IMG/VR virus record: IMGVR_UViG_3300031418_000005
Span: 96,001-160,000 of that record
Origin: a virus
Direction: 5' to 3' (one strand)
DNA length: 64,000 nucleotides
The stretch's first letter is position 1. Every line of letters starts with the position of its first letter. The notes below the pieces were generated by a model. The model saw only the letters and a list, made by a program, of their open reading frames with translations. It ran no database searches and had not been told where the DNA came from. Shown in pieces: positions 40,867-57,414 of the stretch. A program made the translations under genes and the position numbers.

Positions 40867-43800
40867 ATGGCTAAAAAAGGCAGAGACGACTTCGACGATC
40901 TTGATCTCGACCGGATGGATGACTGGGATGACTTCGGTGAACCACCGCGAAATACAGATAAGAGTCGTAACCCTATTATCGACACACTGCGCACAGCGCG
41001 TAAGTCGGCCCTCTCCACAATCTGGCCAAAAGGGAAGCGCGATCAAGTCATCTTGAAAGGGATGCCAAAACCAGCAGCAGATGCCTACGAAGGCTACCAG
41101 AACGTGGCTGCTGCGGGGAAGGATATAGTTGCCCATACGAAGGATGAGCTTGTCAAGACCGAACGCATGGTCAAACAGCAAGCACGTCAGTTAGGGCCAA
41201 CCCTGAAACGCTACTTGCCCGATGCCTTGACCCGCAAGATTGACAAGTGGGCCAAGTCTGACCAGATGGAGTACGGGCAGTACGACCCGAAACAGGCGAT
41301 GATGGATCGCGAGCTCGGTGAAGTGTTCAGTGGCTCCGGGCCACAGACCGACGAGCAACAGCGGGACATGCGTGAAACGGCAACCGAAGACCGTATTCGT
41401 GATTCTATCCGTGAGATGAAATCCGATGCGATGTTCCAGACGGTCATCGGAATTGCGAAAGACATCAGTCTGACCACGAGCCTGAACCGTGGGGTGTTCT
41501 TAAACGTCCAGCGCAAGCAACTGGAACTGCAATACAAAACCTTGTTTGCAATCCAGGACTTGACAAAACTGAAGCAAGACGAGTTTGACCGTAACACGCC
41601 AGCACTCGAAGCGATTCAGAAGAACACCGCCTTACCGGATTACGCGAAGGAAGAATTCTCCGAAGTCCGTTGGGCAAACGTCAAGCGTCAGATGGCGGAC
41701 TGGATGAACCCACTGAAATACGCTGACGGGTTTATCGACCAGATTCGCGAGAACACCAAAAAGAAAATCTCCAACGTTTTTGGTGAAGGGCGCGGGATGC
41801 TCGAGCAATTGCTCGGCATGGGCGTCGAAGATGACTTCGGTATGGAAGACAGTTCATCACTGTCTGCCGAGAAGCGTAAAACCAACGCCCGTGATAAAGC
41901 GGTTGGCTGGGGTTCTGGTTGGCTTGCCAAGAAACTCTTAGGCCCGCAAATCGAGAAACTCCAGAAGTGGTCACGCGAGGAACTGGAAAAGAACCCGGAG
42001 GTGATGAAACGCCTGCAAGCCGGTAAGTTCAATCTCCAGAACCTGTCATCGTTGTCCAACTCCGCGATTGCCGGAGAGACCGATGGCCCAATGGCTGATA
42101 TCTTCCGTTTCTTAAACGAGATGGGAATCATTCAACCGCTGAACCGAGAAAAGGCGTTCCTGGATGAGCGTGACGGGGCAGCAATGACCCGTTCGGCTAA
42201 GTTTGACCGTAAAGCCCACTTAACCCTGGTGGAAATCATCCCAGCCTGGTTATCCGAAATCAACAAATCGATTCGGCGGGGTTACGGTGAACATGCAGAC
42301 ATGGAATACGACATCACCAGTCGTGGGTTCGTTGACCGTAAGGTTATCGGCAACCGTGTCCGTAAAGCCGTAGCTAACGATGAACAGCGTTTGCGTCTGC
42401 AAGGGTCAATCAACAAAACGGTTGACTTTATTGACAGCAAAGGTGAGCTGTCCGCGAAAGAACGTCAGCATCTGGCCGATTATATCGAGTCTCGTGCCTC
42501 ACAAGGCCGCGCATTCGACGTAGGAGCCATTCTCAAGGACTCTAGCCACTTAATGCGACACATGGGTGGCAATGGCGCTGAGAAGCTCCAGGGCATCTTA
42601 CAGGCCCGTTCTAACGGCCTCACCGGCGGACACGCTGAACTCAGTAATGAACTGTCATCTCGGATTGCGACTATCCAGTCGTCTATCTCGGCCCGGCAGA
42701 ACATGATTGATGAAGCGGCAAACATCTACGGTGAGCGTGCGCTGCGTGATGCAGGCATCTTTAACTACGATGCGAAGAACGATACGTTCGGCGTGGATAA
42801 AGACCTGTCCGATCCCTATACCCTGTTCAACGATTTGGCCATGGGGAAAACCCGTACCGGTCGTGCGCTGACGCGTGAGCAGGAAATTGCGAAGAAACTG
42901 CAAAACGGTTCTGCGCTTGGGGACTATCTGCGTCGCATGGGTGCCAACGCGGGTCCAGGAATGGATGACACTTCTTTACCGCCTGCATTACGTGGGAAAG
43001 GTAAAGGGGGCAAAGGTCTCAGTGCACGTCAGCTGGCCGCGGTGCTCTACGGCGAAACCTCCACGAACTTTGTGGAGTTGTTGAGTCAGCGTAACCAGGC
43101 ACAAGACCAAACCGGCCATACCGATCGTGTGGTGGCCGCTATCCGCGAATCCAGCAACCTGAGTGTGGTACAGCAAATCCTGGAACATGTGAAGAACATG
43201 GATGAACAGGGTGTGTTGTTGGCCTCATTGGCAGGCGGTGGTGAAGGTGGTGACGCAACCGGCGATATTCATGGCCCGCCACGTCCTGGTGGTGGTCCTG
43301 GTGGGGGCGGTCGACGTCGTCGCATCATTATCGGCGAAGACGGCTTACTGCGTCGTTGGGGTGGGGTACTGTTTGACTCGGTTGCTGGCGCAGGCCGCTT
43401 AGGCGGACGCCTGGCAAAAGGGGCAAAAGACCGTCTGGGTAAATTCGGTGCCTGGGCACGCGGGAAGTTCGGCGGACCGTCGGAAGGGCCAGGTATTCTG
43501 TCGAAGATTCGTGGGCTGATCACCGGTGGGTTCGAAGGAGCCTGGAACTCAGCCTCGGGCTTTGCAAAAGGTGTTCTGGGTATCCGTGATATCTACGACG
43601 AGAAAGGCAACGTCGTGCTGCAAGGCGCTAAGCTGGAAGCCGGGGAATACTACCAGGTCTCCAGTGGTTCTGGCGCACGTATGAAACAGCTGAAGTCGCT
43701 GGATGATATTCGCCTGGGTCGCGACATTGTTGATGAAGCCGGTAACCTGATTCTCTCTGCTGCCGATTTGGCAAAAGCCGGGAAGTTGCGTTACTACAAA

Positions 43801-46800
43801 GGGGGCAAGGCACAAGCCCTGTTCCAGGTACTGGCACAAAAAGCCGGTACCGGTGTCAACAAAGTGGTTAAGTTGCCCAAACGCATTCTGGATTTCATTT
43901 CTCCGAAAGCCGGGTCGTTCCTGACCAAGGTGAAAGACTGGTTGAATGAGATTCCAGAAGGCGAAGAGAAGTCCCGTATTCAAGCGGCCTTCTCACGCGT
44001 GACCAGTTTACCGAAGAAAGTGTGGGATGCAGCGAAGAACGGCTGGGACAAGTTTAAAGACATGGCCCAAAACAACCCACTCACCCGTTGGTGGCAAAAC
44101 CGCGAAGGCGGTGGCGGGGGTGGTATCTCGCTGTTCTCCATGTCCAATGCCCGTAAGACCAACCACATCCTCATTCGTATCTATAAACTCCTCAACAAAC
44201 GTTTAGCCGGGGAACCGGAAGACGAAGGTTGGACGGAGCAGATGGAGAAAAATGTTGGCGGTGGTAAAGGGTTACGTGGCCAAGCATCACAGGCGCTGCG
44301 TCGTGCCAAGGTGATGGCGAAACGCCGTTTTGGTAAACGTTGGGGTCGCTTCCAGTCGCGTGTTGGTGAAGGGATGGACACCGTTCGTGACGAATATGGC
44401 AACCTGCGCGACAGAGCAGGTAACATCGTGGATTCGTTCCGCGGCAGTCGCTTTGATATCGGTACCCGTTATGAAGTTGAACGTCGCTTGCATGGCCGTA
44501 ACGATGATGTGGCAGATTTCTACCGCCAGCATCTGAATGCGCGGGCAGGTATTTCCGGCAAGAAAGTCAAATCGGCGATTAAGGATGATGTCGATAAAGT
44601 GAAAGGGGCTGCGTCGGATGTTATTGGTTCAGCCGCTGACCGTTCACGGTCATTGGGCAGTCGGTTGTTAGATCGCCTGAACCGTATGGTCGACTTGCAG
44701 GAGATGGGTTGGTTCAACACCATGCGAGACTCCGTGGAGAAAGCGGGGGGAACCGATGGGATGCTGCGTACCATGTTCTCGAAATTCAGTCGGCGTAACA
44801 AACCGAAAGAGTCGGACGAGAAACGTGACTACTTCCAGTTCTTCCGCAGACGGCGTCGCACCAAGGAAGAACAAGAGGCTGCAGCGCCACCGAAACGTGG
44901 TGGCAAGAAGGGTGGGATTATGGGGATGTTGTCAAGCCTCCCTTTAATAGGCCCGATTGTCAGCATCCTCGGTACCGTGGGGTCGATTCTCGGCACAGTG
45001 GCGAAGTGGGGTATCTTTAAACCCGGCGCACTTATCGGGAAAGCTGCGTGGAATGTTGGGAAGTTTGCGGTAACGCGTGCTATCCCGACGATTGCCACCG
45101 GTGTGGCTAGTGCGGCCTCGGCGGTAGTTGCAGCCGTGGGTTGGCCTGCCATTGCTATCGGTGCTGCTGTTGTTGGGGCATCCTGGCTGGCGTACCACAT
45201 CGCCACGTACAAACCGGCACTGCGTCTGGACAAGATGCGTTTGGCACAGTACGGTTATCGCAATAATGATGCCTGGTCGTCTGACGACGGTGCGAAAGCC
45301 CGTTACCTGGAAGACAACATCAAACAATACATCAGCTACGACGACAAAGGTCAAGCCACGCTTCGCGGCATGGCAGCCAAAGACGTAGAGAAACTGGCCG
45401 AAGGGTACGGTGTGAATCTGGAAGAGAAAGGCGAAATGCTGGCCTTCCAGGCATTCATGCTCCAGCGCTTCATCCCAGTGTACCTGCGTTGGGTGACCGC
45501 ATTGAAGTCAATGGATAATGATATCCAGTTAGCCGATGTGGCTGATCAATCGAAAACCTCGAAAGCTGACCAGAAGAAGTTGTGGGCGAAAACGAAGATG
45601 TCGAAAGACGCCAACGCTTTCCATGCCCTTACTGACCCACGTAAAGTGAATCAGGGCTTCTTCTCGAAAGCCTGGGATGCTATCACCTTCACCTCACCCG
45701 ATTTACTGGATGCGGATGAAGTGATGAAAGTGCAAGACCGGGTCGGGAAAGAGATTGACTGGCTGGTTGATGATAAGGTCGCTGAGAAGAAAGGGATGCG
45801 GGAAGCGGTCGAAGGGGTGAAGTCTGCCTCTGTCGCCGAGTCTACGCAGAAACTCGCCTCGCTTGATAAAGAGCGTAACGAGAACACCATCAAAACTCAG
45901 GGCTGGGAAGATGGGACGGAACAGGTTCAGATTCAGGTCGACTGGAATGCGGTGGCAGACAAGAAAGATTTGGATGCCCTCGAATCCCTGCGTTGGAAAA
46001 CGTATGGCCTGGTGACGATTGATTCAGCTGCACGCACACAGATGAATCTCTTCGAGAAAGAAGTCATCAAAGACGTCGATGTGAAGTCCGCCAGTTACAA
46101 AGGGGATTGGAAGAAAGCGATTGCGGTGCTTGCACCTGATGCAATCGGTGGACCGAAAGAAGACCGGTATAAGCTGTGGTTCTTTAACCGCTTCTTACCT
46201 GCCTTCATGACGTTCCTGGTCGGGGTGAAACGTTACCTGCCGACCGGCGATCCACTGAACCTGAAAATGACGGGGGGTTACCTGTACGAAATCGCGTTGT
46301 TGGTACGTGGGGCGTATAACCTGAAAGGGGGTGTGCGTCAGTCCGTGTGGGAAATCCCGTTCAACCCATTGGGTGGGGAAGCCAACACCGATCCGCGTAC
46401 GGTCGACAAAGAGTTGGAAACGTTGCGCGTGCTGTCGAAGGAAGCGGACTTGGCCGTGCGTAACCTGTTGAAGGAAACGCAGTCGGCTGGGAAACGTGCC
46501 CAGTGGCAACGCCGTGACAAGAACACCAACTTCTTCCAGACCAAGGACGATGACCCGCAGAGCAAGTTCTTTGAAACCTACGGCAAAGGCAGTGCCGCTG
46601 AGCAACGGGCGAACGGTTATGCGCCAGTACCGGGCTTTAACGGTGTGCCGAACGACCTTGGCCAATCTGTTGATGCCGTAGGCGGGATTGAGAACTACGC
46701 GAAGTTAACCACCGGACAATCATCCATTAACCTGGGTGAAGTCCAGGCCGGTGACTATAAGAGTCTGGCAGAGAAGTACCCGCTGTCTAAACTCGGACGT

Positions 46801-48006
46801 CGTGGGGCACTGAACGTTCAAAACATTCGGGCAATGATTGCCGATGCGGCGAAGATGTTTGGTGTCCCGCCAGCTGTGGCCTTGGCGATGGCGCAAGCGG
46901 AGTCAAGTTTCGACTACACCGTGACTAACAAAGCAGGTACGGCCGGTGGGTTGTTCCAGTTCATTAACGGAACTTGGGGCGATATGATGAAGGGCTACGG
47001 GAATAAGTTTGGTATCCCGAATAAGCTCAACACCGGCGGTGGACAGCTTGACCCATGGGCGAACACCCTGCTGGGGATGCAGTTTATCCGTGACAACATC
47101 CAATCCGCACAACGTGATTTGGGTGGCGTGGCTCCACCGCCTGCGGTGGCCTACCTGTACCACTTCTTGGGTGCCGGTGGCGGTAAGCTGTTCCTGAAAG
47201 CCTGGCAGAAGAACCCGTCTGCACCGTCAGCGCGTGCACCGGGAATTACGCAGGCTATCCTTTCGGGGAACAAAGGGGTGTTCTACGATGGTCAGGGTCG
47301 TAACAGGACGATTGATGGCGTTATCCAGGAGTTGAACCGTCGCATGGGGGCAGTCTCTGCCAACGTGATGTCGGCTACACCGGGAATGACTTCGGATATC
47401 ACCAAAAACCTGACACCGGCTAACCCGGCAGTTGCTGCGGGTGCCGCGAACGACCCGTCTATCGCGGGTGCTGCTGATGACTTGCCTGCGGACAACGCTG
47501 CACGTCGTGATGATGCGCTGGATGCAAAAGGCGCACAAGCGGCTGCGGATGCACAGGCTACCGCCGCGGGTAACGCAGGGCCAGCAGTACCGTCTCCAGG
47601 TAGCAGTTCTGGTGGAGGCGATGCCGCTGCTACTGCGGATGGGGTTGCTGCCGCTGCAGCGGCAGATGGATTGTCACCGACGGATGTTGCGAAGGTCAAA
47701 GCAGGTGCTGAGAAGCAGTTGCAGAAAACCGCCCAGCAGCCAGCGGCGAACAGTTCAGATGCCACGGCGTCCACACCGACACTGAACACCGTGCCGGTCG
47801 ATGTCCAGCAACTCCAGGTACTCAAAGAGTCGGCCGGGTATCTTAAAGAGATCCGTGACTTTATGAAAGCCAACCCAGGTCGTGGTCTGCCACAAGGCGG
47901 GAATCAGGCACAGGCGCAAGGAGCTGCACCTCCAGGTTCCGCTGCCCGTCAGCAGTCTATCACTCAACCCACACCGTCGCTGAACGTAACCCGTAAGGCG
48001 AGCTAA
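40867..48006 (+). CDS. tape-measure-like tail protein with lytic transglycosylase domain (phiKZ gp181 type)
   Basis: 2379 aa helical; hydrophobic segment; SLT motifs AESSF, AGGLFQFI..TW, YL.H..G.GG. Confidence 0.88.
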   Translation: MAKKGRDDFDDLDLDRMDDWDDFGEPPRNTDKSRNPIIDTLRTARKSALSTIWPKGKRDQVILKGMPKPAADAYEGYQNVAAAGKDIVAHTKDELVKTERMVKQQARQLGPTLKRYLPDALTRKIDKWAKSDQMEYGQYDPKQAMMDRELGEVFSGSGPQTDEQQRDMRETATEDRIRDSIREMKSDAMFQTVIGIAKDISLTTSLNRGVFLNVQRKQLELQYKTLFAIQDLTKLKQDEFDRNTPALEAIQKNTALPDYAKEEFSEVRWANVKRQMADWMNPLKYADGFIDQIRENTKKKISNVFGEGRGMLEQLLGMGVEDDFGMEDSSSLSAEKRKTNARDKAVGWGSGWLAKKLLGPQIEKLQKWSREELEKNPEVMKRLQAGKFNLQNLSSLSNSAIAGETDGPMADIFRFLNEMGIIQPLNREKAFLDERDGAAMTRSAKFDRKAHLTLVEIIPAWLSEINKSIRRGYGEHADMEYDITSRGFVDRKVIGNRVRKAVANDEQRLRLQGSINKTVDFIDSKGELSAKERQHLADYIESRASQGRAFDVGAILKDSSHLMRHMGGNGAEKLQGILQARSNGLTGGHAELSNELSSRIATIQSSISARQNMIDEAANIYGERALRDAGIFNYDAKNDTFGVDKDLSDPYTLFNDLAMGKTRTGRALTREQEIAKKLQNGSALGDYLRRMGANAGPGMDDTSLPPALRGKGKGGKGLSARQLAAVLYGETSTNFVELLSQRNQAQDQTGHTDRVVAAIRESSNLSVVQQILEHVKNMDEQGVLLASLAGGGEGGDATGDIHGPPRPGGGPGGGGRRRRIIIGEDGLLRRWGGVLFDSVAGAGRLGGRLAKGAKDRLGKFGAWARGKFGGPSEGPGILSKIRGLITGGFEGAWNSASGFAKGVLGIRDIYDEKGNVVLQGAKLEAGEYYQVSSGSGARMKQLKSLDDIRLGRDIVDEAGNLILSAADLAKAGKLRYYKGGKAQALFQVLAQKAGTGVNKVVKLPKRILDFISPKAGSFLTKVKDWLNEIPEGEEKSRIQAAFSRVTSLPKKVWDAAKNGWDKFKDMAQNNPLTRWWQNREGGGGGGISLFSMSNARKTNHILIRIYKLLNKRLAGEPEDEGWTEQMEKNVGGGKGLRGQASQALRRAKVMAKRRFGKRWGRFQSRVGEGMDTVRDEYGNLRDRAGNIVDSFRGSRFDIGTRYEVERRLHGRNDDVADFYRQHLNARAGISGKKVKSAIKDDVDKVKGAASDVIGSAADRSRSLGSRLLDRLNRMVDLQEMGWFNTMRDSVEKAGGTDGMLRTMFSKFSRRNKPKESDEKRDYFQFFRRRRRTKEEQEAAAPPKRGGKKGGIMGMLSSLPLIGPIVSILGTVGSILGTVAKWGIFKPGALIGKAAWNVGKFAVTRAIPTIATGVASAASAVVAAVGWPAIAIGAAVVGASWLAYHIATYKPALRLDKMRLAQYGYRNNDAWSSDDGAKARYLEDNIKQYISYDDKGQATLRGMAAKDVEKLAEGYGVNLEEKGEMLAFQAFMLQRFIPVYLRWVTALKSMDNDIQLADVADQSKTSKADQKKLWAKTKMSKDANAFHALTDPRKVNQGFFSKAWDAITFTSPDLLDADEVMKVQDRVGKEIDWLVDDKVAEKKGMREAVEGVKSASVAESTQKLASLDKERNENTIKTQGWEDGTEQVQIQVDWNAVADKKDLDALESLRWKTYGLVTIDSAARTQMNLFEKEVIKDVDVKSASYKGDWKKAIAVLAPDAIGGPKEDRYKLWFFNRFLPAFMTFLVGVKRYLPTGDPLNLKMTGGYLYEIALLVRGAYNLKGGVRQSVWEIPFNPLGGEANTDPRTVDKELETLRVLSKEADLAVRNLLKETQSAGKRAQWQRRDKNTNFFQTKDDDPQSKFFETYGKGSAAEQRANGYAPVPGFNGVPNDLGQSVDAVGGIENYAKLTTGQSSINLGEVQAGDYKSLAEKYPLSKLGRRGALNVQNIRAMIADAAKMFGVPPAVALAMAQAESSFDYTVTNKAGTAGGLFQFINGTWGDMMKGYGNKFGIPNKLNTGGGQLDPWANTLLGMQFIRDNIQSAQRDLGGVAPPPAVAYLYHFLGAGGGKLFLKAWQKNPSAPSARAPGITQAILSGNKGVFYDGQGRNRTIDGVIQELNRRMGAVSANVMSATPGMTSDITKNLTPANPAVAAGAANDPSIAGAADDLPADNAARRDDALDAKGAQAAADAQATAAGNAGPAVPSPGSSSGGGDAAATADGVAAAAAADGLSPTDVAKVKAGAEKQLQKTAQQPAANSSDATASTPTLNTVPVDVQQLQVLKESAGYLKEIRDFMKANPGRGLPQGGNQAQAQGAAPPGSAARQQSITQPTPSLNVTRKAS

Positions 48007-52172: not shown

Positions 52173-53024
52173 TTAGGCGTCAGCTTCTTTAATGAAGATG
52201 CCGTCGGCGTTCAAGAAACCTTTACGGTCTTTGATTTCATCCCACGCCAGGGAGAAGCATTGTTCCAGATTCATGTCGTACGCTTTCGCCAGTGTATTAG
52301 CGTACGCGATCATTTCACTGTAGTGGTATTCGATGTTAATACACACCGCGTTATCGAACGATTTGAAATCCAGCTTCTTCGGCGAATCCAAACCGGCAAC
52401 ACCCCACAGCTCATCGATGGCACAGGTGATGTGGTAGCGCATTTTGTGGAACAGGTAATGGGTGTTACCCATTCTGAATTCGTCACCAGCAGCCCAGCAG
52501 GCAATTTCCAGCGACTCGTGACCGGTCAGTTCCATCAGGTTTACCAGAACCACCAGTGCATCACCCAGGCCATCCATGATGAGCGGATGTTTGTTCTTAC
52601 CCACACCAGTTGCTGCTTCACCATCTTCTTCATACAGCTTAGTGCCCTGGGTGAACCAGACACCGTTGTCGAGGATGCCGCGTGCTTTCGACCAGCCAAT
52701 AACGTGATTCACGCAATCGGCGATGCTGTACAGACGGACGTAGCGAGGATGGGTAACTTCGCCTTTGTACACCGCGGTTGCTAAACGCAGAGGGAACACG
52801 ATGTCGTTGATTTCCAGTTTACCGTCTTCGGTACGCACTTTACCTTCAACGCGGGTTAAACCGGTTTCTTTGCTCACTGCCGCAGCATAGATTGTTTCAA
52901 ATTCCCACGGCGCACTGCCCGCATGATGAATGTAGCTTGCCATCTGCGCATTGATATCGGCAAGGTGTTTATTAGGTTCGAAGATGACAGCGTGTGGTAC
53001 CTGAATGACGAATTGGTCGCCCAT
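52173..53024 (-). CDS. MazG-like all-alpha NTP pyrophosphatase
   Basis: Start ATG 53024; Q..KLYEE.GE, DGLGD..V.L, C...AWDEIKDRKG...G.F.KE. Confidence 0.85.
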   Translation of the reverse strand: MGDQFVIQVPHAVIFEPNKHLADINAQMASYIHHAGSAPWEFETIYAAAVSKETGLTRVEGKVRTEDGKLEINDIVFPLRLATAVYKGEVTHPRYVRLYSIADCVNHVIGWSKARGILDNGVWFTQGTKLYEEDGEAATGVGKNKHPLIMDGLGDALVVLVNLMELTGHESLEIACWAAGDEFRMGNTHYLFHKMRYHITCAIDELWGVAGLDSPKKLDFKSFDNAVCINIEYHYSEMIAYANTLAKAYDMNLEQCFSLAWDEIKDRKGFLNADGIFIKEADA

Positions 53025-53044
53025 GATAATTTTCCTTTTGGGTA

Positions 53045-53080
53045 AAAAAATAAGTGGTGTGTCCATATGGACACACCAAT
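53045..53080 (-). terminator. intrinsic terminator
   Basis: TGGTGTGTCC-ATAT-GGACACACCA + U-tract. Confidence 0.8.
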
Positions 53081-53083
53081 TTG

Positions 53084-53239
53084 TTAAATTTTGCAGGCAC
53101 CGCCAGCACAACCGTCGTCTTCGGTCGCTGCGTCCACACCGCCTTCAACAGTGATGTCCGGGTCAAGCCCTGGGATATCACCGAAGTCCATCGGGTCAGT
53201 TGCCAGTTGTGTATCCTGAACCTGCTCGTTCTTGCTCAT
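53084..53239 (-). CDS. 51-aa acidic peptide mimicking the NrdA C-terminal redox tail
   Basis: Hand translation MSKNEQVQDTQLATDPMDFGDIPGLDPDITVEGGVDAATEDDGCAGGACKI; GAGAG RBS; followed by terminator. Confidence 0.8.
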   Translation of the reverse strand: MSKNEQVQDTQLATDPMDFGDIPGLDPDITVEGGVDAATEDDGCAGGACKI

Positions 53240-53250
53240 TGCTTACTCTC

Positions 53251-53724
53251 TTAATTGATTAGATGAATAACCACATCCGGCGTGACGACGTCAGCCAGAC
53301 TACGGTAAATTTTGTCAAAGCTAAACTTGTTGAAGAAGAAGCCAGCTTCATCGACAATGACCAAACTGAACTTCTCATAACCAGAGAGTCCAGAGCCTGT
53401 TGCGTTCTGCCAGTTTTCTGGCAGATAGCCAGAATGTACTGTGAGCCATCCGTCACCAGAAGCTTTCGCATGGAATTTTTCCACGACCTCGTCACGCAAC
53501 GCCACGGCATGAACCAAGTACAGTACGCTACCGCGGTGCTTTGCCGCCATATCGACTGCGTGCGCAGTCACCCCTCTCTGGCGACCTGCACCGTAACGAA
53601 TGGTACGGAATTCACTCAGATCCAACCCCGGTCGGAAGTTGAGTCGTTTTGCTTCGTCACTGTCTAATGCTACCAGACCATTCGAAAGTTCTTTCACTAC
53701 CAGATTATAGTTAATTGGAGTCAT
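53251..53724 (-). CDS. small P-loop-like protein
   Basis: Start ATG 53724 (GAGG RBS); GRQRGVT and LVIVDEA. Confidence 0.65.
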   Translation of the reverse strand: MTPINYNLVVKELSNGLVALDSDEAKRLNFRPGLDLSEFRTIRYGAGRQRGVTAHAVDMAAKHRGSVLYLVHAVALRDEVVEKFHAKASGDGWLTVHSGYLPENWQNATGSGLSGYEKFSLVIVDEAGFFFNKFSFDKIYRSLADVVTPDVVIHLIN

Positions 53725-53746
53725 AGACACTTTGATTACCTCTTCG

Positions 53747-54544
53747 TTAGTATTTTGCCATCCGCATGTTACCGTTCTCGTCAGTGACCACGGTAAGTTT
53801 GGAGGCTTCTTTACGGACATATTCCGGTACCAGCTTCTGCCAGTCCGGGTGACGGTACCAAGTCAGGGTGTGATAACCGATTTGTTCGGTCAGTTGCTCC
53901 CAGCCTTCGACCGGAGTACGGGAATAGAAATGGTGACGCGCTTGTGCTGCCCAGTCGTGATACTCAGTGGCACGACCAACATATTTCAACACATCGGCTA
54001 ACACATGTTCGATAGTCACCGGCAGGTTTTCAGTTTCCTGCCAGGTGTACGTCGCGGTGTGTTCACCCGGTTCGAACTGCGCGTCGAACGATGGAATCCC
54101 ATTAAAGTGAATCTGCGAATTTCCACCGAGCTCCTGCGAGATAATGGTAACCGTCCATTGCCCTGCGGCAGGTGGGACACCGAACTCACTCGTCTCAGGG
54201 ACTTTGGCGTAGTTCTTAAAGCGCAAGTCGATGTCTGGCGGCAGACCCAACATCTCGATAAGCTTGCGCTCAAAGTCGGTCAGGTCACCACCTTCAATGA
54301 CCTTCCAACCCGGACAAACAACACTACGGTTAATGTAGCGATGGCGTTCTGGCCAGTTACGCACACCCTCCGCAAACAACAGTGCACCGTGCGCGTCAGT
54401 TTCACCCACGTCAACCAAATCGATAACCGTTGGCACAAGATGACGTGCCTCGTTCTCATCGCGGGCGGCTACGACGCCGTGGTTATACGTGTCATAGTTC
54501 GTGGTATAAAATGCATCGGAGAAAAGAAACAGTCTGTTTTTCAT
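53747..54544 (-). CDS. hypothetical protein
   Basis: Start ATG 54544 (GGAG RBS); N-terminal YDTY..VVAA.DE.EAR module. Confidence 0.75.
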   Translation of the reverse strand: MKNRLFLFSDAFYTTNYDTYNHGVVAARDENEARHLVPTVIDLVDVGETDAHGALLFAEGVRNWPERHRYINRSVVCPGWKVIEGGDLTDFERKLIEMLGLPPDIDLRFKNYAKVPETSEFGVPPAAGQWTVTIISQELGGNSQIHFNGIPSFDAQFEPGEHTATYTWQETENLPVTIEHVLADVLKYVGRATEYHDWAAQARHHFYSRTPVEGWEQLTEQIGYHTLTWYRHPDWQKLVPEYVRKEASKLTVVTDENGNMRMAKY

Positions 54545-55096: not shown

Positions 55097-56125
55097 TTAG
55101 ATCGCGACGGGCGCTTTAATCGCCGGATGCGAAATGTAATCGACAACCTCGAAGTCTTCGAATTTGTAGTCGAAGATGGAATCGGGCTTACGTTTGATAA
55201 CCAACTTCGGTAACGGTTTAGGGTCACGGGTAAGTTGGAGGTCAGCTTGTTCCAGATGGTTGGAGTACAGATGCGTATCACCACCTGTCCAGACGAAGTC
55301 GCCTACCGCCATGTTCGCCTGTTGTGCAAACATGTGTACCAGCAAGGCGTAAGACGCGATGTTAAACGGTACGCCAAGGAACATGTCCGCACTACGCTGA
55401 TAGAGCTGACAAGAAAGAACGCGAGCTGGGACACCTTCGTTGTCAATTACCGCGTGCATCAGTGTGTCGTTGTTAATGATATCATTACTAAAGCGGATCG
55501 CTTCAAACTTATCAGGAAGGTTATTTTCCATCCAGTCTAATCGTTCGGCGACTGACAACTCGCGTGTGTAGAACTGGAAGAACGCATGACACGGTGCCAA
55601 AGCCATCTCGTCTAGCTCTGCCACGTTCCAGGCACTGACAATAATGCGGCGGTTGTCTGGGTCGTTACGCAGCTGGTCAACCACTTTGGCGATTTGGTCA
55701 ATACTTTTCCTGTACAGGATGTCAGATTCCCACGTCCCTGATTGTTCCCATCCCTCGGATTCGAGCTCTGCACACCCAGCACTATGAAACGCCGACATTT
55801 CCGTGTGTGCAATCCAGCTACGCCATTGCTTACCGTACACCGGGCCTAAGTCACCGTTTTTATCCGCCCATTCGTCCCAGATGGTGACGTTGTTGTCTTT
55901 CAAATACTGGATGTTGGTGTCACCCATGAGGAACCACAGCAGCTCATGGATGATTGAACGAAGGTGAACCTTTTTGGTGGTGACCAGCGGAAAACCTTCT
56001 TGTAAGTTAAAGCGCATCTGGCGTCCGAAAACAGAGAGGGTGCCCGTACCGGTACGGTCGGCTTTTACATCCCCGTTTTCGCGAACATCACGCAGTAAGT
56101 CCAGATATTGTTTCATGGTGTGCAT
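55097..56125 (-). CDS. thyA: thymidylate synthase
   Basis: [46 protein letters not shown]. Confidence 0.97.
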
Positions 56126-56999
56126 TATCCTGTTTTAGGGCGTTCATGATAAACTTGAGGTCGTCGTTGTACGTCGCCGTCACGGTGCCGTTTTCGTACG
56201 TGATAAGAATCTTTGGCGTCCGCTCGAACGTAAGATGCCGCCATTTATCATCGGCGTAGATGTGGCGCTCCAGCAGTTCTTCCAACGCCTCTGCCAACTT
56301 ATCACTGACCTCATCAACCTTGTGAGACGCAAACGGTGTGTGAACGTAAGGCACGAAGGCTTTCGCCGCTGCGGCGTTTAGACCACTTTCGATATAGAAG
56401 TGCGTCAACTGACCCGACGGGAGCTTCTCGTTGACCAGGGGTTGTGTTATCGAGTCGCCATCAAAGTCGTCGGGGCTGAGTACGAACATACCCAGTTCAT
56501 TCATTACACCCCGCGTCCGAATCAGTGCGTAGTGACCGTTGTAGACGACCCGGTCAAACTCCAACCCACACACCCGACACAGTGAGCCTAACGACATCAT
56601 GAAATCACCGAAGGCTTTCAGGAAGCTGTGCAGGCAGAACTCACCTTCCTCAGGCGTCTGCCAGACAAGATCCAAAGTGTTGTGCATCAATGCGTGCAGT
56701 TGCGCATGTTTGTTGGTAGCTTTCACCTTTAACTGGATGTAATGGTCAAGCTGGTCATGCAGCGGAACGTCGTTGGCGGGCTTCGAGAAATGCACGAGTC
56801 CGATAAACGTCCACAGTAGTCGACCTGCTCCCGCGGCCACTTTCAGGTTATCGTGTTTTTGCACACCCTCAGCGACTTCGCCGAGGCAGCGGTAAAGTTT
56901 GCTACGCTGTTGTTCGTAGCTACCGAACTGGTACACCAGCGAATCGGTGTACCAACTGTTTACGGCATGAATTTGAATCTCGGCATTAGGCAGCTGCAT
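56088..56999 (-). CDS. degenerate MazG-like protein
   Basis: Start ATG 56999; [15 protein letters not shown]...AFGD...[11 protein letters not shown] follows the MazG pattern without its acidic residues. Confidence 0.6.
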
Positions 57000-57414
57000 C
57001 CTGTGCTCCGTAGGCGTAACAGAAAGAGAAGGCCAGATCATCGCCTGCGGCACGCGATACCACGATAGCGATACCGTGATTAGCAATGTGGTCGTTCGGT
57101 ATGCCCTGTTTGGCATTGAGGCCCACCGACTTATTCAGGGAAGCCAGTAGCTTCCAGCTGTAGACGCGGCTAGTGAAGTACGCGTTCTTCAAAAAACAAA
57201 CGGCGACGCTGTGGGGAACGTTGAACGCCGCAAACTCCGGCCCGGCTTTAGCCAGGTTGCCGTTGAGTGCGAGTTCGTTAGTGAGCGTAACGGAAACCTT
57301 CTTACCGTTCAAACGCAGGGCCAGATGTTCCCAGGACGCATTGTCCGTGTTCGGGATAATAACTTCGTTAACAATCAGGCCGGTGCCTTTCTCAAAAGCA
57401 ATCTTATTCATCAT
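56986..57414 (-). CDS. hypothetical protein
   Basis: Start ATG 57414 with AAGGA RBS. Confidence 0.7.
   Translation of the reverse strand: MMNKIAFEKGTGLIVNEVIIPNTDNASWEHLALRLNGKKVSVTLTNELALNGNLAKAGPEFAAFNVPHSVAVCFLKNAYFTSRVYSWKLLASLNKSVGLNAKQGIPNDHIANHGIAIVVSRAAGDDLAFSFCYAYGAQDAAA

What the first reader, a model, noticed from the sequence alone, without database searches (positions are those of the whole stretch)
53084..53239. Free-standing mimic of the ribonucleotide reductase redox tail
Seen: an unlisted 51-aa acidic ORF with its own RBS and terminator, ending EDDGCAGGACKI. Known: E. coli NrdA ends DDGCESGACKI, and its Cys pair shuttles electrons from thioredoxin/glutaredoxin to the active site. 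There is no nrdA body nearby; the neighbours are nucleotide-metabolism genes. Inference: a trans-acting redox shuttle that boosts host RNR turnover, or a decoy for redoxins or for defences that sense NrdA.
Basis: partly seen in the sequence, partly recalled or inferred. Interest (0 to 1): 0.78.

Follow-up and report, generated by a model that had tools for sequence, protein, structure and literature searches.

The report
Phage microprotein copying reductase redox tail
A giant phage that has no ribonucleotide reductase of its own carries a small, strongly conserved gene whose product ends in an exact copy of the two-cysteine "recharging arm" of the bacterial enzyme that makes DNA building blocks, and it most likely plugs into the host's enzyme, although its effect is untested.

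Summary
Window 53084..53239 (-) is a real 51-codon gene with a Shine-Dalgarno-like site and a terminator hairpin. Its last 11 residues equal the last 11 of a solved class Ia NrdA.

- **Family:** It belongs to a widespread unnamed phage family (three PHROGs of unknown function; 58 clusters in a profile search). Its core is an acidic docking motif followed by C-X4-C-K-[IL] at the very end. The gene is under purifying selection (dN/dS 0.14 against phiEaH2).
- **No reductase in carriers:** No carrier record holds an RNR large subunit (0 of 23). All six records of a ~60-kb phage lineage hold nrdB plus this peptide but no nrdA.
- **Predicted binding:** A complex model with E. coli NrdA scored 0.73 against a best control of 0.10. 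It places the terminal Cys-Lys in the active site and the family motif beside the root of NrdA's own tail.
- **Best reading (0.45):** A trans-acting tail surrogate that shuttles electrons from host thioredoxin or glutaredoxin to host RNR.
- **Main rival (0.2):** An inhibitor that plugs the enzyme.

Nothing here is tested experimentally. The scan has noted this family before on other DNA (at least 8 genomes). Six literature searches found no paper on it.

The parts
53084..53239 (-). Gene for the 51-aa acidic microprotein (stop codon included): a free-standing copy of the class Ia NrdA redox tail with its own docking motif
   Evidence: ORF; phrog_14561, E 8e-31, full length; tblastn hits in 70 phage records; dN/dS 0.14 against phiEaH2.
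53087..53122 (-). Codons for residues 40-51, E-D-D-G-C-A-G-G-A-C-K-I: the C-X4-C tail. The last 11 residues are identical to the end of NrdA 7mdi_A.
   Evidence: C at -8 and -3, G at -5 and K at -2 in 55 of 55 members; A at -4 in 54 of 55; residues 49-50 predicted at NrdA 438-439, 464, 621, 624-625.
53129..53197 (-). Codons for residues 15-37 (D-P-M-D-F-G-D-I-P-G-L-D-P-D-I-T-V-E-G-G-V-D-A): the family-specific acidic docking motif, absent from NrdA
   Evidence: G34 and D36 invariant in 19 sequences; V-E-G-G-V-D consensus in 55. PDB RNR hits cover only profile positions 38-52; residues 21-27 and 29-39 form the predicted interface.
53246..53252 (-). Shine-Dalgarno-like AAGAGAG, 6 nt before the ATG, overlapping the stop codon of the upstream gene
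   Evidence: Read
53045..53078 (-). Intrinsic-terminator-like hairpin (10-bp stem, 4-nt loop) and T-run directly after the stop codon
   Evidence: -18.7 kcal/mol, z -3.6
53251..53730 (-). Context: upstream gene, phrog_2586, a 159-aa protein of unknown function with a P-loop-like VIVDEAG motif. It precedes the microprotein gene in most SPN3US-type relatives but not in all.
   Evidence: start at residue 31 of the long ORF; poor model, no fold assignment.
53747..54544 (-). Context: phrog_10453 protein of unknown function. In two relatives its homologue carries the tail module as its own C-terminus.
   Evidence: L079, 355-aa ORF. P0066, 310 aa; alignment.
52173..53027 (-). Context: downstream MazG-like nucleotide pyrophosphohydrolase
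   Evidence: phrog_7855, E 1e-132; annotation in relatives
55097..56125 (-). Context: thymidylate synthase ThyA in the same minus-strand gene cluster
   Evidence: PF00303, E 2e-117

Best explanation
The gene encodes a disordered, strongly acidic microprotein that stands in for the mobile C-terminal redox tail of the host's class Ia ribonucleotide reductase large subunit (NrdA).

Its conserved middle (I-P-G-L-D ... V-E-G-G-V-D) docks on the face of NrdA where the enzyme's own tail emerges. Its last 12 residues, a copy of the NrdA C-X4-C-K-I end, reach into the active site.

Proposed cycle:
1. The two cysteines reduce the active-site disulfide left after each turnover.
2. The oxidised peptide is recharged by host thioredoxin or glutaredoxin, as the native tail is.

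In phages that bring no nrdA, this gives host NrdA extra recharging arms and raises deoxyribonucleotide output. Some such phages also bring their own NrdB.

Shown here: the gene is real, conserved and selected; the tail is identical to that of real NrdA proteins; carriers lack nrdA; and a structure model passes the binding test. Inferred: the redox cycling, the recharging by host redoxins and the sign of the effect.
For: 1. **Tail identity.** The last 11 residues equal those of the solved NrdA 7mdi_A. The family profile hits 14 RNR-alpha entries among 18 PDB hits, all at the extreme C-terminus, including the free 25-mer NrdA peptide chain 1qfn_B.
2. **Conserved end.** 55 of 55 aligned members end C-X4-C-K-[IL] with both cysteines. 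Retention of the second, resolving cysteine fits productive thiol-disulfide exchange better than a dead-end trap (inference).
3. **Purifying selection.** dN/dS is 0.14 for the window against phiEaH2. L105 and L112 differ at 12 nucleotides and 0 residues over 36 codons.
4. **No own enzymes.** The genome has no RNR of class I/II or III, no NrdB, no thioredoxin and no glutaredoxin. Any partners must be host proteins.
5. **No nrdA in carriers.** 0 of 23 carrier records (0 of 17 that are at least 90% complete) hold PF02867. Five of 5 RNR-encoding phage records hold no extra free-standing copy.
6. **nrdB without nrdA.** All 6 records of a ~60-kb lineage with the peptide encode NrdB but no NrdA. That NrdB is 62% identical to E. 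coli NrdB and keeps a complete docking tail. A phage that supplies beta for host alpha would defeat itself by inhibiting alpha.
7. **Complex model with E. coli NrdA.** The score was 0.73 (runs 0.73, 0.74, 0.73) against a best of 3 controls of 0.10. That mark was reached by 58 of 80 solved complexes and 2 of 110 mismatched pairs; the counts hold only roughly because my own alignment was used. The runs agree in at least 66% of contacts, and the partner pLDDT is at least 56. Peptide residues 49-50 touch NrdA 438-439, 464, 621 and 624-625. Residues 34-37 touch 733-734, next to where the native tail leaves the fold. The native tail is resolved only to Q742 in 6W4X (PMC11067019, passages read).
8. 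**Nucleotide-metabolism context in independent lineages.**
   - ThyA and MazG flank the gene in this window.
   - dNMP kinase and ThyX, plus a weak sub-threshold dCMP-deaminase-like match (E 0.003), lie nearby in the 60-kb lineage.
   - The module is fused to a 5'-3' deoxyribonucleotidase-like protein and to a nucleotide pyrophosphohydrolase-like protein.
9. **Recalled, not from a call.** Re-reduction limits steady-state turnover of E. coli RNR (Ge, Yu and Stubbe 2003). A free NrdA 25-mer is a glutaredoxin-1 substrate (the 1QFN study).
Against: - There is no experiment, and no solid evidence of expression. True metatranscriptome contigs did not cover the ORF.
- The predicted interface includes NrdA 347-350 and 711-716. 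These overlap the helices (341-349 and 711-724) that form the NrdB-tail cleft (PMC11067019 Discussion passage). The docked peptide might therefore compete with NrdB, which would inhibit the enzyme.
- The model used E. coli NrdA as a stand-in, contained no NrdB, and gave the peptide a pLDDT of only 57-59. A pass shows likeness, not binding.
- The carrier records come from few independent lineages: one jumbo clade, one 60-kb lineage and two incomplete contigs. '0 of 23' is therefore far fewer independent observations.
- The exclusion from RNR-encoding phages is equally expected for an inhibitor.
- Most known small phage proteins that mimic host parts are inhibitors (general knowledge).
- 4 of 58 profile hits deviate at the end: P0025 and P0053 run on past the motif, P0061 lacks the second Cys and P0063 lacks the tail. 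These may be sequencing or frame errors.
Confidence: 0.45

Rival explanations
1. Inhibitor of host class Ia RNR. The peptide anchors in or beside the NrdB-tail cleft of NrdA and plugs the active site with the tail copy. This blocks NrdB docking, substrate binding and the native tail, in the manner of R2-tail peptide inhibitors or of yeast Sml1.
For: - The predicted interface overlaps NrdA 347-349 and 711-716, which are part of the helices 341-349 and 711-724 that bind the NrdB tail (PMC11067019 passage).
- The peptide's end occupies substrate-site residues 621 and 624-625 in the model.
- The peptide is never found with a phage nrdA. This is expected if it would poison a phage's own class Ia enzyme.
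- Earlier scan notes on other phages read the N-part as a copy of the NrdB docking tail (unchecked AI notes).
- Precedents are recalled, not from a call: Sml1 competes with the R1 tail, and R2 C-terminal peptides inhibit RNR.
Against: - Six of 6 records of the 60-kb lineage carry an apparently intact nrdB that can only work with host NrdA. Inhibiting NrdA would waste it.
- A position-specific score built from 20 distinct NrdB tails finds no similarity in the family beyond composition: median shuffle p 0.40, and 5 of 55 at p <= 0.05.
- Both cysteines are kept in 55 of 55 members. A covalent trap would be better served by losing the resolving cysteine.
- Carriers keep ThyA or ThyX, which need deoxyuridylate supply.
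- There is no obvious benefit of shutting host RNR for phages with 220-267-kb genomes and no RNR.
Confidence: 0.2
2. A portable NrdA-docking tag or scaffold. Its main role would be to hold phage nucleotide-metabolism proteins at host RNR, as in a dNTP-synthesis complex, with redox chemistry secondary.
For: The module occurs as the C-terminus of four kinds of protein:
- a 5'-3' deoxyribonucleotidase-like protein (P0046; phrog_2643, E 3e-15);
- a nucleotide pyrophosphohydrolase-like protein (P0065; phrog_671, E 2e-30);
- two phrog_10453-like proteins (L079 and P0066);
- an IscU fragment (P0037).

The N-terminal extension of free-standing members varies from 0 to about 85 residues.
Against: - 53 of 58 profile hits are stand-alone proteins of 120 aa or fewer with nothing to tether.
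- The fusion partners are the usual gene neighbours, so the fusions may be neutral stop-codon losses.
- The invariance of both cysteines is not explained by tethering.
Confidence: 0.1
3. Electron donor for an unrecognised phage enzyme. The candidate is the phrog_10453 protein, to which the module is fused in two relatives; it would use the tail as NrdA does, and host RNR would not be the target.
For: - Two fusions of phrog_10453 homologues with the module.
- phrog_10453 folds confidently (pLDDT 84) into something with no match: Foldseek best E 0.011, VIA best Z 4.8.
Against: - phrog_10453 is absent from the contexts seen in the 60-kb lineage, L098, L101 and L106, yet the module is conserved there.
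- The tail is a letter-perfect copy of NrdA's, which points to NrdA's own partners.
- The complex model with NrdA passed.
Confidence: 0.08
4. Decoy or sink for host thioredoxin or glutaredoxin. The peptide would compete with NrdA and other substrates for reducing power, or hold the redoxins, without touching RNR.
For: The tail is the known recognition element for these redoxins (recalled; chain 1qfn_B is listed). The phage has no redoxin of its own.
Against: - The conserved docking motif upstream of the tail is unexplained by this reading, and it is the part with the lowest predicted error against NrdA.
- A rapidly recycled dithiol is a poor sink.
- Peptide-redoxin binding was not modelled here.
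Confidence: 0.07
5. Non-functional remnant of a deleted or split phage nrdA.
For: Phage NrdA proteins end in the same motif. These are 13 of 20 loci and 11 of 37. Some of those frames are only 342-354 aa, which suggests split nrdA genes.
Against: - Purifying selection.
- The gene has its own ribosome site and terminator.
- It is conserved across 70 phage records and 58 clusters at 50% identity.
- Residues before the tail are a family-specific motif, not the Y-Y-H-N-T-R-D-G stretch that precedes the tail in NrdA.
- None of the 23 carrier records has an nrdA body.
Confidence: 0.02

Closest known systems
C-terminal redox tail of class Ia RNR large subunit (E. coli NrdA residues 754-761, C-X4-C; free 25-mer peptide in PDB 1QFN)
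   Same: It has the same terminal sequence. The peptide's last 11 residues are identical to those of NrdA 7mdi_A, and 9 of 11 match E. coli NrdA. It sits at the very C-terminus, follows an acidic run, and has the same cysteine spacing.
   Different: It is a separate 51-aa gene product in a genome without nrdA, not the end of a roughly 760-aa enzyme. It carries its own conserved docking motif, which NrdA lacks.
Small disordered RNR regulators of yeasts (Sml1, Spd1, Hug1, Dif1) - recalled, not from a call
   Same: These are small, disordered proteins that act on the RNR large subunit. Sml1 works through the site used by the enzyme's own C-terminal tail.
   Different: They are inhibitors, eukaryotic, and have no copy of the cysteine pair. 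No sequence comparison was run here. This phage family keeps a complete redox tail and may activate the enzyme.
NrdB (R2) C-terminal tail and peptide inhibitors derived from it
   Same: Both are acidic stretches with a few F/L/I residues. The predicted contact with NrdA helices overlaps the NrdB-tail cleft, 341-349 and 711-724 (PMC11067019 passage).
   Different: There is no sequence similarity beyond composition in my test. The motif is internal, not C-terminal, and runs in the opposite direction along the track towards the active site.
Phage auxiliary RNR genes, including phages with nrdB only
   Same: They have the same apparent purpose of supporting dNTP supply. A 2013 survey noted two phages with nrdB but no nrdA and left their function open (PMC3653736, passage read).
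   Different: What is supplied here is not an enzyme subunit but a detached mobile arm. The link between nrdB-only genomes and this peptide is not in that passage, and I could not see its supplementary table.
Glutaredoxin domain fused to NrdB in Facklamia ignava (PMC6187632; search listing and start of abstract only)
   Same: It is another evolutionary re-wiring of how reducing power reaches class I RNR.
   Different: There a redoxin is fused to beta. Here the alpha tail itself is detached and virus-encoded.
PHROG families 14561, 24014 and 38753
   Same: The window protein matches all three: E 8e-31, 1e-13 and 3e-12.
   Different: All three are listed as 'unknown function'. Splitting them into three hides the fact that they are one family.

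Membership tests
Class Ia RNR large subunit (NrdA) | Catalytic ten-stranded barrel (Pfam Ribonuc_red_lgC, PF02867) | tested here: not met
   The 51-aa protein has no Pfam family. There is no PF02867 match anywhere in the genome.
Class Ia RNR large subunit (NrdA) | C-terminal C-X4-C pair at the extreme end of the chain | tested here: met
   55 of 55 family members
Free-standing RNR-tail microprotein family (PHROGs 14561/24014/38753) | Short acidic protein: variable N-part, V-E-G-G-V-D-like motif, then [DE]-D-x-C-x-[GS]-G-A-C-K-[IL] as the last residues | tested here: met
   (E 8e-31, full length)
Free-standing RNR-tail microprotein family (PHROGs 14561/24014/38753) | Carried by phages without an RNR large subunit | tested here: met
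   0 of 23 carrier records hold PF02867, and 0 of 17 of those at least 90% complete. L098's record could not be searched.
NrdB C-terminal docking-tail mimic | Sequence similarity of the N-part to NrdB tails beyond composition | tested here: not met
   PSSM from 20 distinct NrdB tails against 500 shuffles each: median p 0.40, and 5 of 55 at p <= 0.05
NrdB C-terminal docking-tail mimic | Occupies the NrdB-tail cleft of NrdA (helices 341-349 and 711-724) | tested here: inconclusive
   The model interface includes 347-350, 708-712 and 714-716, but also 394-411 and 731-736. The model contained no NrdB (cleft definition from the PMC11067019 passage).
Thioredoxin/glutaredoxin-fold redoxins | Thioredoxin fold with a C-X-X-C active site | tested here: not met
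   No Pfam match. The spacing is C-X4-C, and the peptide is 51 aa with predicted pLDDT 57-59 in the complex.
Sml1-type RNR inhibitor proteins | Binds the large subunit and blocks regeneration of the active site | not testable with these tools
   Binding is supported only by a model. Inhibition needs an enzyme assay.
nrdA pseudogene or remnant | Relaxed selection and flanking nrdA-derived sequence | tested here: not met
   dN/dS 0.00-0.56 in pairs with a defined dS, with this window against phiEaH2 at 0.14. The upstream gene is phrog_2586, not nrdA.

The most novel reading that the evidence does not exclude
Phages that lack nrdA rebuild the host's ribonucleotide reductase into a hybrid enzyme. 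The parts are host alpha, in some lineages a phage-encoded beta, and a phage-encoded detachable 'swinging arm'.

The arm would dock at the root of the native tail. It would carry electrons from host thioredoxin or glutaredoxin into the active site and so lift the re-reduction bottleneck.

This would be the first case of a virus supplying an enzyme's mobile redox arm in trans as a separate gene. It would also explain the long-noted nrdB-only phages.
Probability: 0.4. Interest if true: 0.9.

Novelty: new variant of a known kind. Interest (0 to 1): 0.78.

Why it matters
- **Enzymology.** How the flexible alpha tail re-reduces the active site is the least-seen step of the class I RNR cycle. A natural, high-affinity, stand-alone tail that docks on NrdA would be a ready tool to trap and image that step. 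It would also allow a test of whether re-reduction limits dNTP supply in cells.
- **Phage biology.** It would add a new kind of auxiliary gene, one that supplies a part of an enzyme rather than a whole enzyme. It would explain why some phages carry nrdB alone, and it would give a function to three 'unknown' PHROG families present in many jumbo phages of Erwinia, Salmonella, Escherichia, Cronobacter and Proteus.
- **If it is an inhibitor instead.** It would be a natural peptide lead against bacterial class Ia RNR.

Tried and rejected
**Expression.** One run search and one laying of contigs were done. Two true metatranscriptome runs (X15, X20) gave short contigs on parts of the MazG and upstream genes but none on the ORF. 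One run whose RNA status is only a guess (X10) covers the ORF with a relative's contigs. No conclusion on expression follows.

**Gene neighbourhoods of metagenomic members.** I used IMG/VR loci instead.

**Similarity to the NrdB tail.** It looked striking by eye (D-F-G-D in both) but failed a shuffle test. I do not claim sequence mimicry of NrdB.

**Neighbouring proteins.**
- ESM Atlas gave nothing for either of the two upstream proteins.
- phrog_2586 modelled poorly (pLDDT 55). Foldseek gave only weak helicase-domain-like rows, best E 0.006.
- phrog_10453 modelled well (pLDDT 84) but matched nothing: Foldseek best E 0.011 at TM 0.11, VIA wide best Z 4.8.
- The upstream proteins of the jumbo and 60-kb lineages are unrelated.

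**Longer relatives.** The search with alignment A3 found none at 430-2000 aa. With the single peptide it found only P0066.

**Literature.** Six searches and passages of six papers were read. None describes a free-standing NrdA tail.

**Host match.** I did not fetch NrdA of Erwinia or Pantoea. Phages of one host (E. amylovora) carry C-A-G-G-A-C, C-T-G-G-A-C, C-P-S-G-A-C, C-E-S-G-A-C and C-E-G-G-A-C variants, so strict host matching seems unlikely.

**Rows left out of the 55-sequence count.**
- P0004, a near-duplicate of P0003.
- P0037, the IscU fusion, which does end in the motif.
- P0025, P0053, P0061 and P0063, whose ends deviate.
- Three giant acidic proteins (P0038, P0047, P0050), probably spurious.
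Full report
**What is there.** On the minus strand at 53084..53239 lies an ATG-initiated ORF of 51 codons. Its product has a strongly acidic second half and ends ...T-E-D-D-G-C-A-G-G-A-C-K-I.

- A purine-rich AAGAGAG sits 6 nt before the ATG and overlaps the stop codon of the upstream gene.
- Directly after the stop comes a 10-bp G+C-rich hairpin followed by a T-run, at 53078..53055 (-). Its energy is -18.7 kcal/mol, z -3.6, and 0 of 200 shuffles fold as well.

**The genome.** The window is part of a 246,337-bp virus record rated 100% complete. At about 77% nucleotide identity it resembles Erwinia phage phiEaH2 and belongs with the SPN3US-type jumbo phages. Its DNA is held by phyllosphere metagenome runs.

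- The only PDB hit of the peptide is the RNR alpha chain 7mdi_A, whose last 11 residues are identical to the peptide's last 11 (E 0.25 alone).
- A profile of 55 family members gave 18 PDB hits at E <= 10. Fourteen are class Ia RNR alpha entries, always aligned at the exact C-terminus (E 0.02-0.5). They include 1qfn_B, a free 25-residue NrdA peptide. The other four are unrelated (E 1.8-3.4). Only profile positions 38-52 take part.
- In a scan of bacterial genomes, 45 of 45 confirmed loci were ends of nrdA frames preceded by Y-Y-H-N-T-R-D-G-type sequence.

**A real gene and a large family.**
- tblastn found the protein in 70 phage records of Erwinia, Salmonella, Escherichia, Cronobacter and Proteus phages. 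The weakest rows, such as a Vibrio phage at E 4, are probably chance. It is annotated 'hypothetical protein' in phiEaH2 and SPN3US.
- It matches three PHROGs, all of unknown function: E 8e-31, 1e-13 and 3e-12.
- A profile search of 1.84 billion representatives gave 58 proteins at E <= 1e-3. Fifty-three are 35-120 aa, and all but two of those (P0025, P0053) match at or within a few residues of their C-terminal end. Two are 224 and 245 aa. Three are giant acidic proteins with many partial stretches, which I take to be spurious. None is of NrdA size.
- In 55 aligned members, all end C-X4-C-K-[IL], with G at -5 in 55, A at -4 in 54 and G or S at -6 in 55. A V-E-G-G-V-D-like motif lies about 10-12 residues before the first cysteine. 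The net charge of the last 40 residues is -5 to -14.
- Four further hits deviate at the end: two run on past the motif, one lacks the second cysteine and one lacks the tail. I left these out of that count.
- Over the last 36 codons, dN/dS is 0.14 between this window and phiEaH2 and 0.00-0.17 within the 60-kb lineage. One pair shows 12 nucleotide differences and no amino-acid difference.
- This rules out a decaying nrdA fragment.

**Anatomy.** The N-terminal part varies from nothing to about 85 residues. The conserved unit is the last 35 or so residues. In this window it reads D-P-M-D-F-G-D-I-P-G-L-D-P-D-I-T-V-E-G-G-V-D-A-A-T-E-D-D-G-C-A-G-G-A-C-K-I. Only the last 12-15 residues resemble NrdA. 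The rest is specific to the family.

**Genomic setting.**
- This genome has no PF02867 (class I/II large subunit), no PF00268 (small subunit), no PF13597 (class III), no thioredoxin and no glutaredoxin. The controls rang in 12, 8, 6, 14 and 14 of 14 reference genomes.
- The gene sits in a minus-strand cluster: thyA, phrog_9376, phrog_10453, phrog_2586, this gene, MazG-like. A second MazG-like paralogue lies beyond thyA.
- The order [phrog_2586]-[microprotein]-[MazG] recurs in several relatives. In three of the nine annotated relatives (CR5, Phobos, pEa_SNUABM_1) other genes lie next to it.
- In an unrelated lineage of ~60-kb phages with terminal repeats, the gene lies near a dNMP kinase and ThyX. 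A weak, sub-threshold dCMP-deaminase-like match (E 0.003) and an RdgC-like protein are also there.
- In one 45-kb contig it is followed by a NifU/IscU-like gene.

**Distribution against RNR genes.**
- None of 23 carrier records holds PF02867. Seventeen of these are at least 90% complete. One further record, L098's, was not held.
- Five of 5 phage records that do encode NrdA contain no second, free-standing copy.
- PF00268 is present in 6 of 22 carrier records. These are exactly the six records of the 60-kb lineage (E about 1e-55), and it is in none of the other 16.
- That NrdB is 378 aa and 62% identical to E. coli NrdB over 375 residues. It keeps the S-S-Y-L ... D-L-A-G-F-D-L tail.
- These phages therefore bring beta and a free alpha tail but no alpha. 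A 2013 survey noted two phages with nrdB only and left their function open (PMC3653736, passage).
- The carrier records represent few independent lineages, so the counts overstate the sample.

**Predicted binding.** One complex job paired E. coli NrdA (as reference) with the peptide, using its 11-row alignment.
- The score was 0.73 (runs 0.73, 0.74, 0.73) against a best of 3 controls of 0.10.
- That mark was reached by 58 of 80 solved complexes and 2 of 110 mismatched pairs. The counts hold only roughly because my own alignment was used.
- The runs agree in at least 66% of contacts, and the partner pLDDT is at least 56.
- Peptide residues 21-27 and 29-39 (the family motif) touch NrdA 347-350, 394-411, 696-716 and 731-736.
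- Residues 49-50 (Cys-Lys) touch 208, 253, 438-439, 464, 621 and 624-625. By recalled knowledge, these line the catalytic and substrate-phosphate site.
- Residues 34-37 lie on 733-734, next to where NrdA's own tail leaves the fold. The tail is resolved only to Q742 in the 6W4X cryo-EM structure, and residues 754-761 hold the C-X4-C (PMC11067019 passages).
- The model supports binding but does not show it. It used a stand-in host enzyme and contained no NrdB.

**Boost or block?** The same paper defines the NrdB-tail cleft as NrdA helices 341-349 and 711-724. The predicted interface overlaps its edge (347-349, 711-716), so competition with NrdB is possible. By eye the N-part resembles NrdB tails, for example D-F-G-D in both. 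A score matrix from 20 distinct NrdB tails did no better on the family than on shuffles: median p 0.40, and 5 of 55 at p <= 0.05. I therefore do not claim NrdB mimicry by sequence.

Against inhibition:
- The nrdB-only lineage would disable its own investment.
- Both cysteines are invariant.
- Carriers keep thymidylate synthases.

For inhibition:
- The cleft overlap.
- The exclusion from nrdA-bearing phages.
- The general habit of small phage mimics.

I put the trans-acting shuttle at 0.45 and the inhibitor at 0.2.

**Fusions.** The module is the C-terminus of several proteins:
- a 5'-3' deoxyribonucleotidase-like protein (P0046);
- a nucleotide pyrophosphohydrolase-like protein (P0065);
- an IscU fragment (P0037);
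- homologues of the window's phrog_10453 protein in a complete 236,909-bp phage (L079) and in P0066.

The partners are the usual neighbours. This fits either neutral gene fusion tolerated by a C-terminal module or a tethering role. phrog_10453 folds confidently (pLDDT 84) but matches no solved fold.

**Comparison with what is known.** The protein works like the NrdA tail but is not an NrdA, since the barrel is absent (tested). It is not a redoxin. It recalls Sml1-type regulators and R2-peptide inhibitors only in its target. Six literature searches found no description of it.

Earlier notes of this scan report the same family in at least 8 other genomes, with similar readings. I took from them the lead to test for nrdB and verified it here. 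Their claim of NrdB-tail mimicry did not pass my sequence test.

**Verdict.** This is a real, conserved, unannotated phage gene family with a precise and testable link to host RNR. It is a new variant of a known kind. The mechanism is inferred, and its sign is open.

Noticed in passing
window 53747-54544 (-); L079:5050-6117; P0066: The phrog_10453 protein models confidently (pLDDT 84) but has no structural match: Foldseek best E 0.011 and VIA best Z 4.8. In two relatives it carries the RNR-tail module as its own C-terminus, and the phrog_2586 gene is missing between them.
   Followed up: partly
window 53251-53730 (-): The upstream 159-aa protein (phrog_2586) has invariant S-E-F-R-T-x-R-Y-G-x-G-R-Q-x-G-x-T and V-D-x-A-G-x-F-F motifs (P-loop-like). 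Its AF2 model is poor (pLDDT 55), and only weak helicase-domain-like hits appeared. An earlier scan note called its SPN3US homologue 'half of a thymidine kinase'.
   Followed up: partly
L123:1372-2508 (and L120-L122): A ~60-kb phage lineage with terminal repeats encodes a full-looking NrdB, 62% identical to E. coli NrdB, but no NrdA. All six records also carry the free-standing tail gene about 12 kb away.
   Followed up: partly
L101:6135-6521; P0037: A NifU/IscU-like Fe-S scaffold gene (phrog_8429, E 9e-43) lies directly after the tail gene in a 45-kb viral contig. A separate protein, P0037, joins the first ~50 residues of IscU (PF01592) to the tail module. This is a possible link to iron cofactor supply for RNR, or a chance neighbour.
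   Followed up: no
L079:2526-4423: In this relative, thyA appears interrupted. A 416-aa frame holds ThyA sequence with a long foreign insert, and the last ~99 residues of ThyA lie in another frame further on. This suggests an intron or homing-element insertion.
   Followed up: no
L107, L108, L110 (open frames of 342-354 aa ending in the NrdA tail): Some viral contigs have only the C-terminal ~350 residues of NrdA in one open frame. This suggests split nrdA genes, of the kind described for homing-endonuclease insertions.
   Followed up: no
window 55097-56125 (-): ThyA here is 342 aa, against a 266-position Pfam model matched end to end. It therefore carries about 75 extra residues as insertions.
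   Followed up: no
window 52173-53027 (-) and 56088-57116 (-): Two MazG-like paralogues flank the thyA cluster. The second matches phrog_10269 strongly and phrog_7855 only weakly (E 3e-6).
   Followed up: no
window 40867-48006 (+): A 2379-aa protein with Gly/Arg-rich low-complexity stretches and a lytic-transglycosylase-like segment near its C-terminal third. Its phiEaH2 counterpart is annotated 'tail fiber protein'.
   Followed up: no
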